A stretch of 38,029 bases of DNA from the UHGV virus genome UHGV-0335973; one strand, given 5' to 3'. The notes under the pieces are model-generated. The model did no database searches. It had not been told where the DNA came from and was given only the letters and a program-made list of their open reading frames with translations. Below, one piece after another: positions 15,876 through 16,491 of this stretch (its first letter is position 1; the number at the start of each line of letters is the position of its first letter). A program made the position numbers and the translations under genes. The stretch is from a virus.

Positions 15876-16073
15876 ATGAAAAAGTGGATTGTTCGTGTAC
15901 ATGATAACACGACTGGAGAGTTAGTAGCTGTAGATTTTGTTAAGACTCGAGAACACGCACGTAGGGTCAAAAATCAATACAAATCTACTTTTAGACTTAA
16001 TAAGGTTACACTAGGAAAAGCTATCGTGAATAGTGAAGGTGCTTTTTGTGTTAACAGTAAGGTTTATTATTAA
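15876..16073 (+). CDS. small protein, paralog 1 of tandem triplet
   Basis: shares W.VRV, TR..AR and C-terminal KV(Y/H)Y with next two ORFs. Confidence 0.45.
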   Translation: MKKWIVRVHDNTTGELVAVDFVKTREHARRVKNQYKSTFRLNKVTLGKAIVNSEGAFCVNSKVYY

Positions 16074-16282
16074 TGAGACCGATCACCATGAGACAATTTT
16101 GGTTAGCAAAGATTAAGTGGGCATCAGGTGGCATGACTATGACTGCACTACCCACTCGCCAACAAGCTCGAGATTTTAAAAAGACTATGCTTACTGGTGA
16201 CGTGGTTAATAGTATCAGTATCCATAAGGCCAAGGAGTATTCTTCTGGTCGTGTTTATATCAGCGGAAAGGTGCATTACTAA
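16073..16282 (+). CDS. small protein, paralog 2 of tandem triplet
   Basis: ATGA overlap with neighbours; C-terminal GKVHY. Confidence 0.45.
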   Translation: MRPITMRQFWLAKIKWASGGMTMTALPTRQQARDFKKTMLTGDVVNSISIHKAKEYSSGRVYISGKVHY

Positions 16283-16491
16283 TGAAAAAGATGTGGGCTA
16301 TTCGTGTTGTCTGGGAACAGAAACAACACTTGGGCAAAGATAATATCAAACTGTTTAATACTCGTAAAGAGGCTCGTATTGCTAAGAAGAATATGAAAGC
16401 TCTAATAGGAACTGTTAAAAGTGCTGATATTCATCGCTGGTACGAAGACCCTAGCTCGGGTTCTTTTATGTCTAAAGTAATTTATTACTGA
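16282..16491 (+). CDS. small protein, paralog 3 of tandem triplet
   Basis: C-terminal SKVIYY; SIHK..EYSSG / DIHRWYEDPSSGS shared with paralog 2. Confidence 0.45.
   Translation: MKKMWAIRVVWEQKQHLGKDNIKLFNTRKEARIAKKNMKALIGTVKSADIHRWYEDPSSGSFMSKVIYY

What the first reader, a model, noticed from the sequence alone, without database searches (positions are those of the whole stretch)
15876..16491. Tandem triplication of a small gene family ending in a conserved aromatic C-terminus
Three consecutive ORFs (65, 69, 69 aa) joined by ATGA overlaps share W.VRV, TR..AR..KK and a C-terminal (S/G)KV(Y/H/I)Y. Local tandem expansion of small early genes often marks host-interaction or anti-defence functions under diversifying selection.
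Basis: seen in the sequence. Interest (0 to 1): 0.5.

Follow-up and report, generated by a model that had tools for sequence, protein, structure and literature searches.

The report
Tandem small basic phage paralogues
Three adjacent small genes in a phiEco32-like E. coli phage are ancient copies of one uncharacterised family of strongly basic 64-69-residue proteins in the phage's DNA-precursor gene block; real, but function unknown and only moderately unusual.

Summary
ORFs A (15876-16073), B (16073-16282) and C (16282-16491) are real paralogues: BLASTP gives A-B 2e-5 and B-C 2e-6, and each hits phrog_4939 (unknown function) at about 1e-27. The window is a phiEco32-like Kuravirus, and the genes correspond to phiEco32 gp71, gp70 and gp69.

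- The junctions are TAATG one-base overlaps, not ATGA.
- The array lies in the replication/nucleotide-metabolism block, between dCTP deaminase and the mapped middle promoter P68. It is not among the early host-takeover genes.
- The duplication is ancient. A, B, C and a fourth type, D (next to ThyX, absent here), each span several genera, and a Grimontviridae Salmonella phage has one D-like copy.
- dN/dS is 0.17-0.29 per gene and at most 0.53 per segment, so diversifying selection is not shown.

The genes are, however, recombination hot spots with mosaic alleles, and copies come and go: B in 99 of 99 related records, C in 94, A in 65, D in 41.

Best guess, at low confidence: they bind a polyanion, probably nucleic acid.

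The parts
15342..15875 (+). dCTP deaminase gene (phiEco32 gp72 orthologue). Its stop codon abuts the ATG of copy A. It forms the upstream boundary of the slot.
   Evidence: ORF; annotated dCTP deaminase in relatives; PF22769 DCD in a distant relative.
15865..15870 (+). Shine-Dalgarno AAGGTG for copy A, formed by the K-G-V codons at the end of dcd.
   Evidence: Sequence read directly; 5 nt from the ATG.
15876..16073 (+). Copy A, 65 aa, pI 10.1 (phiEco32 gp71 type).
   Evidence: (phrog_4939 E=1.2e-27). The A type is found in 65 of 99 related records.
16059..16063 (+). Shine-Dalgarno AAGGT for the long start of copy B, formed by the K-V codons of copy A's C-terminal motif.
   Evidence: 9 nt from the ATG at 16073.
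16073..16282 (+). Copy B, 69 aa from 16073 or 64 aa from the alternative start at 16088; pI 10.4 (phiEco32 gp70 type). This is the universally retained copy.
   Evidence: E=6.8e-28, profile aligned from residue 6; 99 of 99 records; AF2 pLDDT 86.4.
16268..16273 (+). Shine-Dalgarno AAGGTG for copy C, formed by the K-V codons of copy B's C-terminal motif.
   Evidence: 8 nt from the ATG.
16282..16491 (+). Copy C, 69 aa, pI 10.1 (phiEco32 gp69 type). This is the most polymorphic copy, with a segmentally mosaic allele.
   Evidence: E=2.4e-27; AF2 pLDDT 85.7; 94 records; only 7 at 95% identity or more.
16493..16526 (+). Conserved promoter region equivalent to phiEco32 middle promoter P68. It comprises a TGGTAGTAGATA box and an AAATGTATATA core (consensus tAATGTAtA, recognised by the phage sigma factor gp36). 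It forms the downstream boundary of the slot and drives the next unit (gp68 orthologue at 16564).
   Evidence: Motif found. Consensus, and P68 upstream of gene 68, come from PMC8948821. P68 was used as a middle promoter in PMC12276001. The alignment with phiEco32 shows 2 mismatches in 91 nt, and the core is invariant in distant relatives.

Best explanation
Shown:
- A, B and C are three ancient paralogues of a family restricted to phiEco32-like phages and their relatives (PHROG 4939; Gordonclarkvirinae plus at least one Grimontviridae phage).
- The family members are small (64-75 aa) and strongly basic.
- Each is predicted to fold as a compact beta-beta-alpha-beta-beta domain.
- They are encoded back to back with overlapping stop and start codons, directly after the dCTP deaminase gene. 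They form the 3' end of the replication/nucleotide-metabolism transcription unit, which stops just before middle promoter P68.
- The Shine-Dalgarno sequence of each gene lies inside the last codons of the previous gene, so the four proteins (dcd, A, B, C) are probably translationally coupled.
- The family evolves under purifying selection on the fold and on the helix, with frequent recombinational swapping of whole alleles and of loop segments, and with gain and loss of individual copies.

Inferred mechanism (low confidence):
- The only surface-type residues invariant across all paralogues are on one helix: T-R-x-x-A-R-x-x-K-(K).
- By helical periodicity, R28, R32, K35, K36 and K39 form one basic face, while A31, A34 and M38 face the sheet.
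- Together with a net charge of +6 to +12 in every member, this suggests all paralogues dock on the same kind of polyanionic ligand, most likely DNA or RNA.
- The variable loops (beta1-beta2, helix-to-beta3, and the beta3-beta4 hairpin) would then tune specificity or partner contacts.
- Their constant placement next to dcd (types A-C) and next to ThyX (type D) suggests they act with the phage's replication and dTTP-supply machinery.
For: - Paralogy.
- Genome identity and orthology to phiEco32 gp71/70/69.
- Conserved slot (dcd, then array, then 109-aa ORF, ferritin/Dps, thioredoxin, ThyX), even in the most divergent relatives.
- P68 boundary.
- Coupling signals.
- Basic charge in every member tested (pI 9.8-10.9).
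- Family-wide invariant W, TR..AR..K, [IL]HK, G and terminal Y.
- Confident and concordant AF2 models for C and B.
- The helix segment has the lowest dN/dS (0.09-0.14), against 0.35-0.53 in the loops.
- Within-orthologue variation maps to the loops.
- Single-copy D-like homologue next to ThyX in a Grimontviridae phage, reciprocally best to the D copies.
- B is present in 99 of 99 related genomes and often 100% identical, as expected for a conserved function.
Against: - A basic helix could equally bind an acidic protein surface.
- Model coordinates could not be inspected. Surface exposure of the basic residues is inferred from helical periodicity, not measured.
- Synteny in these phages is conserved overall, so adjacency to dcd and ThyX may be historical rather than functional.
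- Presence/absence of A, C and D, the mosaic alleles, and the neighbouring homing-endonuclease insertions are features more typical of accessory host-interaction genes.
- There are no experimental data on these proteins in the searchable literature.
Confidence: 0.4

Rival explanations
1. Host-factor or anti-defence inhibitors. Each paralogue would bind and neutralise a different host protein or defence-system component, with the array acting as a diversified counter-defence cassette.
For: - Tandem multi-copy family with presence/absence polymorphism (A in 65, C in 94, D in 41 of 99 records).
- One natural genome retains only B plus D.
- Divergence is locally extreme between otherwise 97-100% identical genomes.
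- Loop modules are reshuffled by recombination.
- Gordonclarkvirinae are reported to be remarkably resistant to RM and other defence systems, with no known inhibitor or modification (PMC11990801).
Against: - dN/dS is 0.17-0.29 overall and no segment exceeds 0.53.
- The invariant residues are the same basic helix in all paralogues, which implies a shared rather than a diversified interface.
- pI of about 10 is the opposite of the acidic DNA-mimic anti-restriction proteins.
- The genes lie in the middle-class replication/nucleotide module, not in the early host-takeover cluster.
- B is universal and nearly invariant.
- Genes expressed only after DNA entry cannot protect the incoming genome from restriction.
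Confidence: 0.28
2. Small adaptor or regulatory subunits of the phage dTTP-supply enzymes. Family members would bind dCTP deaminase (array copies) and ThyX (D copy), for example to regulate them or to tether them to replicating DNA.
For: - Array copies always follow dcd and are translationally coupled to it.
- The D type and the single-copy Grimontviridae homologue lie 14-15 nt upstream of ThyX.
- This linkage persists across two phage families and in very divergent metagenomic relatives.
Against: - Unrelated ORFs and HNH endonuclease genes insert between dcd and the array without apparent harm.
- This window lacks D although it has ThyX.
- In the Grimontviridae phage no copy is next to dcd.
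- Whole-module synteny is conserved, so adjacency is weak evidence.
- No interaction prediction could be run.
Confidence: 0.14
3. Functionless or selfish filler ORFs kept only by linkage in a recombination-prone slot.
For: The slot is plastic, and A, C and D are dispensable in some genomes.
Against: - Clear purifying selection: dN/dS is 0.09-0.14 on the helix and 0.17 for B.
- Reading frames are intact in about 100 genomes.
- The family is retained across two phage families.
- The predicted fold is confident.
Confidence: 0.04

Closest known systems
PHROG family phrog_4939 (unknown function)
   Same: All three proteins match the profile end to end at E of about 1e-27. This is the same family.
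   Different: The PHROG carries no function, and nothing in the accessible literature describes the paralogy, the array structure or its evolution.
phiEco32 gp71, gp70, gp69 and their orthologues in SU10, NJ01, KBNP1711, ECBP2 and the BASEL phages Bas88-94
   Same: Same genes in the same slot, 78-100% identical for A and B.
   Different: The window carries the rarer 'EQKQ...SSG' allele of C; only 7 of 94 records are 95% identical or more. It also lacks the fourth, ThyX-adjacent D copy that 41 records have.
Generic two-layer alpha/beta sandwich domains: PsaD core, a CapRel subdomain, a topoisomerase III subdomain, ERH, palm-like cyclase cores
   Different: Z never reaches 8, sequence identity is 5-13%, and the hits share no function. 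This is resemblance in topology only, not evidence of homology or mechanism.
Small phage-encoded inhibitors with alpha/beta folds (T4 Dmd antitoxin, AcrIIC3)
   Different: The scores are at noise level for a 65-residue domain. There is no sequence similarity, and neither hit appears in the top 60 for the B model.
Acidic DNA-mimic anti-restriction proteins (Ocr, ArdA, Ugi type; from general knowledge)
   Same: Small phage proteins that could explain RM resistance, which is an open question for Gordonclarkvirinae.
   Different: Those proteins are strongly acidic. This family has pI 9.8-10.9 and net charge +6 to +12, so it cannot work as a DNA mimic.

Membership tests
phrog_4939 | Significant full-length match to the PHROG profile HMM | tested here: met
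   E=1.2e-27 (A), 6.8e-28 (B) and 2.4e-27 (C), covering profile positions 1-67.
Any Pfam-A or NCBIfam family | Match at or near the curated threshold | tested here: not met
   No hit for the three proteins at E up to 10. Among 35 family members only scattered single hits, best E=0.0067. NCBIfam gave none.
Protein with a solved structure (sequence relative) | Profile match to a PDB chain sequence | tested here: not met
   One spurious match at E=0.087 to a 57-residue peptide chain.
AbrB/MazE swapped-hairpin DNA-binding domain (also beta-beta-alpha-beta-beta) | Structural superposition on AbrB, MazE or SpoVT N-domains | tested here: not met
RRM or ferredoxin-like RNA-binding domains | beta-alpha-beta-beta-alpha-beta topology with RNP motifs; strong structural match | tested here: inconclusive
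Acidic DNA-mimic anti-restriction proteins (Ocr/ArdA/Ugi type) | Strongly negative surface charge (acidic pI) | tested here: not met
   pI 9.8-10.9 and net charge +6 to +12 in all eight members tested.
T4 Dmd-like antitoxin | Sequence or strong fold similarity to Dmd; binding to RnlA/LsoA toxins | tested here: inconclusive
Gene family under diversifying (positive) selection | dN/dS above 1 for the gene or for defined segments | tested here: not met
   Whole-gene dN/dS is 0.29, 0.17 and 0.29; the maximum for any segment is 0.53. Site-level, recombination-aware tests were not run.
phiEco32 early (host sigma-70-dependent host-takeover) gene class | Location in the early cluster and early transcript kinetics | tested here: not met
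   The genes lie in the replication/nucleotide-metabolism cluster, which is described as middle class, directly upstream of middle promoter P68. Transcript kinetics for these specific genes could not be checked, because the primary paper is not held.

The most novel reading that the evidence does not exclude
The family is the missing determinant, or a necessary part of it, of the unexplained broad resistance of Gordonclarkvirinae to restriction-modification and other defence systems. One route would be DNA-coating: shielding proteins that bind replicating phage DNA through the invariant basic helix, with recombining loop modules that evade host counter-measures. Another would be as specificity or targeting subunits working with the adjacent nucleotidyltransferase and dCTP deaminase in a so far undetected DNA modification pathway.
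Probability: 0.1. Interest if true: 0.7.

Novelty: new member of a known kind. Interest (0 to 1): 0.3.

Why it matters
Gordonclarkvirinae are common, broad-host-range E. coli phages used in therapy studies, and they are now available in the BASEL collection. Their molecular biology is poorly known, and their resistance to restriction systems is unexplained.

This family is one of the few features specific to the lineage, multi-copy and recombinationally active, inside the otherwise very conserved replication/nucleotide-metabolism block. It sits directly behind the two enzymes (nucleotidyltransferase and dCTP deaminase) that have been proposed as a possible DNA-modification route.

The analysis gives a defined, testable target:
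- four orthologous types;
- an invariant basic helix to mutate;
- natural genomes that lack A and C;
- a tractable host system.

If the function proves mundane, the locus is still a clean example of module shuffling within a 200-bp gene.

Tried and rejected
- My first guess, that the window was an N4-like or G7C-like phage, was wrong. One search showed phiEco32, SU10, NJ01 and other Kuravirus relatives.
- Word-seeded homologue search with C alone returned only C orthologues. An alignment query recovered A and B orthologues but nothing outside the clade.
- The exhaustive HMMER search of 1.84 billion representatives gave only 19 clusters.
- The afdb50 Foldseek library was unavailable.
- Pfam, NCBIfam and PDB-sequence profile searches were empty.
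- An Rfam scan of the whole window was empty.
- No nucleotide-level repeats exist between the copies, so recent duplication or gene conversion is rejected.
- The extra small ORFs after dcd in ECBP2/KBNP1711 and in Paul/SU10/WFI101126 were tested as cryptic family members and rejected.
- The sigma-70 promoter and terminator scan around the locus was at background level.
- The primary phiEco32 genome and transcription papers (PMC2587145, PMC3275717) are not held. The temporal class therefore rests on later papers that summarise them.
- A literature search for the gene products and the PHROG id found nothing.

Full report
**Observation.** The window contains three consecutive + strand ORFs at 15876-16073 (A, 65 aa), 16073-16282 (B, 69 aa) and 16282-16491 (C, 69 aa), as reported. 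Their similarity is real:
- BLASTP gives E=2e-5 for A-B and 2e-6 for B-C. A-C alone is not significant (0.21), so that pair is linked through B.
- Against 3000 composition-preserving shuffles the local alignment scores lie 8.5 and 9.6 standard deviations above the mean, and no shuffle reaches them.
- All three match one PHROG profile, phrog_4939 ('unknown function'), end to end at E of about 1e-27.
- A family HMM finds exactly these three copies in the 38-kb window.

Two details need correcting. The junctions are TAA|ATG (dcd/A) and TAATG one-base overlaps (A/B and B/C), not ATGA. B may alternatively start at Met6 (16088), which is where many orthologues start. However, only the 16073 start has a Shine-Dalgarno sequence at a usable distance.

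**What the genome is and where the genes sit.** The region is 95-97% identical to about 60 Escherichia and Shigella phages of the phiEco32 group (Kuravirus, Gordonclarkvirinae). An early guess of an N4-like phage was wrong.

A, B and C are the orthologues of phiEco32 gp71, gp70 and gp69. The gene order is: primase/helicase, exonuclease subunit, nucleotidyltransferase, dCTP deaminase, A, B, C, then a 72-bp spacer, a 109-aa ORF (gp68), a Dps/ferritin-like protein, thioredoxin and ThyX.

The spacer carries AAATGTATA at 16516-16524. This is the single-element consensus tAATGTAtA of promoters read by the phage sigma factor gp36. One of the six experimentally mapped promoters lies upstream of phiEco32 gene 68 (PMC8948821), and it is used as 'middle promoter P68' in PMC12276001. 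The window differs from phiEco32 at 2 of 91 aligned positions here. The core plus an upstream TGGTAGTA box are invariant even in very divergent relatives.

The triplet is therefore the 3' end of the replication/nucleotide-metabolism unit, a cluster described as middle class. It is not part of the early host-takeover cluster.

The Shine-Dalgarno sequences for A, B and C are AAGGT(G), formed by the K-(G)-V codons at the end of the preceding gene. This suggests dcd, A, B and C are translationally coupled. No Rfam family matches anywhere in the window, and the minus-strand ORFs over the region are short shadow ORFs.

**Extent and history of the family.** The family is narrow:
- An exhaustive HMMER search of 1.84 billion representative proteins found only 19 clusters at E of 0.001 or better, all 65-79 aa.
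- Where context could be read, even the most divergent members occupy the same slot after dcd and before the 109-aa ORF, ferritin, thioredoxin and ThyX. They occur as arrays of two (L010) or at least four (L011) copies.
- Within Gordonclarkvirinae four types are recognisable: A, B and C in the array, and D, a separate copy immediately upstream of ThyX in NJ01, KBNP1711, ECBP2 and others. This window lacks D.
- In a neighbour-joining tree (no bootstrap, short sequences, so indicative only) each type groups members from different genera.
- A Grimontviridae Salmonella phage has a single copy (HMM E=1.5e-12) directly upstream of ThyX. Its best matches in Gordonclarkvirinae are the D copies.

The duplications are therefore old, and the ThyX-adjacent position may be ancestral. 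No DNA-level repeat survives between A, B and C.

**Population behaviour.** By tblastn at E of 0.001 or better, among the 99 related phage records the B type is in 99, C in 94, A in 65 and D in 41. One 76.6-kb viral contig has an HNH endonuclease ORF in place of A and lacks C. O18-011 has an annotated HNH endonuclease gene next to the array, and FH3 has an unidentified 151-aa ORF in place of A. Unrelated small ORFs (a membrane peptide and an acidic helical protein) are inserted after dcd in other lineages.

Between the window and close relatives the three genes are local divergence peaks. C versus Bas90, for example, has dS 0.70 and dN 0.12, while the adjacent gp68 is identical and dcd has dS 0.06. 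Because synonymous sites are affected as much as non-synonymous ones, this is allele replacement by recombination, not in-place adaptive change.

The dN/dS figures are as follows:

| Region | dN/dS |
|---|---|
| A, whole gene (13 alleles) | 0.29 |
| B, whole gene (15 alleles) | 0.17 |
| C, whole gene (16 alleles) | 0.29 |
| Helix segment | 0.09-0.14 |
| Variable loop segments | 0.19-0.53 |

No segment exceeds 0.53. C is also mosaic internally. Types of the beta1-beta2 loop and of the C-terminal hairpin occur in all four combinations for seven pairs of types, a four-gamete signature of recombination across the conserved central segment. The window's C allele is a minority form; only 7 records are 95% identical or more.

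**Structure and (lack of) homology.** AlphaFold2 with family alignments gives confident, concordant models for C (pLDDT 85.7) and B (pLDDT 86.4). Both show a long beta1, beta2, one 11-12-residue helix, a long beta3 and a short beta4. The two alignments overlap heavily, so the models are not independent.

Foldseek against viral models returns only uncharacterised homologues. These include proteins of Salmonella SE131, Cronobacter GAP52 and vB_CsaP_009, and Aeromonas LAh_8. Pfam, NCBIfam and PDB-sequence profile searches are empty.

**Mechanistic inference.** Every member tested is strongly basic: pI 9.8-10.9 and net charge +6 to +12. The family-wide invariant positions are as follows:
- a Trp in beta1;
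- T-R-x-x-A-R-x-x-K-(K) at the start of the helix;
- [IL]-H-K in beta3;
- a Gly in the hairpin;
- the C-terminal Tyr.

By helical periodicity, R28, R32, K35, K36 and K39 (C numbering) fall on one face, and A31, A34 and M38 fall on the opposite, presumably sheet-packing, face. This is inferred from the sequence and the predicted helix limits; coordinates could not be inspected. This helix is the segment under the strongest purifying selection, while variation concentrates in the three loops.

Exposed basic residues conserved across paralogues that are only 25% identical argue for a shared polyanionic ligand. Nucleic acid is the most economical candidate, given the replication/nucleotide-metabolism context. 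I put this at about 0.35-0.4.

The main rival, at about 0.28, is a set of protein-binding inhibitors of host or defence factors.
- In its favour: copy gain and loss, the mosaic alleles, and the unexplained resistance of Gordonclarkvirinae to RM and other defence systems (PMC11990801).
- Against it: low dN/dS, the shared rather than diversified conserved surface, the basic charge (which excludes DNA mimicry), the universal near-invariant B copy, and the non-early position.

A third idea, at about 0.14, is an adaptor or regulator of dcd and ThyX. It rests only on adjacency conserved across two phage families. It is weakened by insertions between dcd and the array, and by the absence of D in this ThyX-encoding window.

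**Comparison with known systems, and novelty.** The family is already clustered as phrog_4939 and annotated as 'hypothetical protein' in about 100 genomes. I found no published description of the paralogy, its four types or its mosaic evolution.

It fails the tests for DNA-mimic anti-restriction proteins, for AbrB/MazE-type domains, for any curated family, and for gene- or segment-level positive selection. It is best filed as a new, uncharacterised example of a familiar phenomenon: tandem paralogous small phage genes in a recombination-prone slot.

Interest is moderate to low (0.3). The function remains an inference.

The most novel reading still open is that these proteins underlie the clade's unexplained defence resistance, possibly acting with the adjacent nucleotidyltransferase and dCTP deaminase. 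I give this about 10%.

Noticed in passing
window 13962-15332 (nucleotidyltransferase gene): This gene is far more divergent than its neighbours between close relatives: 85-88% amino-acid identity and dS of about 0.4 versus Bas90, NJ01 and the viral contig L007, while dcd, gp68, Dps and ThyX are 99-100% identical. It is a second mosaic hot spot directly upstream. The BASEL authors single this enzyme out as a possible DNA-modification candidate.
   Followed up: partly
L007 3476-4000; L020 1-291 (O18-011); L024 198-653 (FH3): HNH endonuclease ORFs sit at the dcd/array junction in L007 and O18-011. In L007 the ORF replaces copy A. FH3 has an unidentified 151-aa ORF in place of copy A, which was not examined. 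The slot appears to be an insertion site for homing elements.
   Followed up: partly
window 17973-17989 (thioredoxin/ThyX junction): The fourth family type, D, lies immediately upstream of ThyX in 41 related records and in a Grimontviridae phage. It is absent here: thioredoxin abuts ThyX.
   Followed up: yes
window 15876-15902 (first 9 codons of copy A): There are no synonymous differences among 13 distinct A alleles in codons 1-9, although the gene-wide mean pS is 0.27. This may reflect a nucleotide-level constraint (translation initiation or coupling region) or a recombination boundary with the conserved dcd gene.
   Followed up: no
window 16564-16893 (gp68 orthologue, 109 aa): This unknown-function protein, expressed from P68, is 100% identical at the amino-acid level in all Kuravirus relatives compared (dN=0) and 91-93% identical across genera. 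The conservation is extreme, right next to the hypervariable array. Its 3' end overlaps the start of the Dps-like gene.
   Followed up: no
window 16508-16522 / 16550-16564: A 15-nt inverted repeat (80% complementary, 27-nt loop) spans the P68 core and the ribosome-binding site and start codon of the gp68 orthologue. It may be a 5'-UTR structure.
   Followed up: no
window 20642-20650 (+), 27918-27926 (+), 27846-27854 (-): There are three further exact TAATGTATA motifs. These are probably the equivalents of other mapped gp36-dependent promoters (for example P58 and P40, plus a divergent one). No such motif lies on the + strand upstream of the triplet within the window, so the promoter that drives the triplet's own transcription unit was not identified.
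   Followed up: partly
L019 577-780 (phage pEC-N1203-2Af.1): An extra 67-aa ORF sits between copy C and the gp68 orthologue in this relative. The family HMM does not match it.
   Followed up: no
public records PQ812250.1, NC_018835.1, PQ805429.1, PV018827.1: Several annotations in relatives look wrong. Copy A is labelled 'deoxycytidine triphosphate deaminase' (PE006). The D copy is labelled 'putative ABC transporter' (NJ01). The Dps/ferritin-like gene is labelled 'integrase' (EK5, KM01 and others).
   Followed up: no
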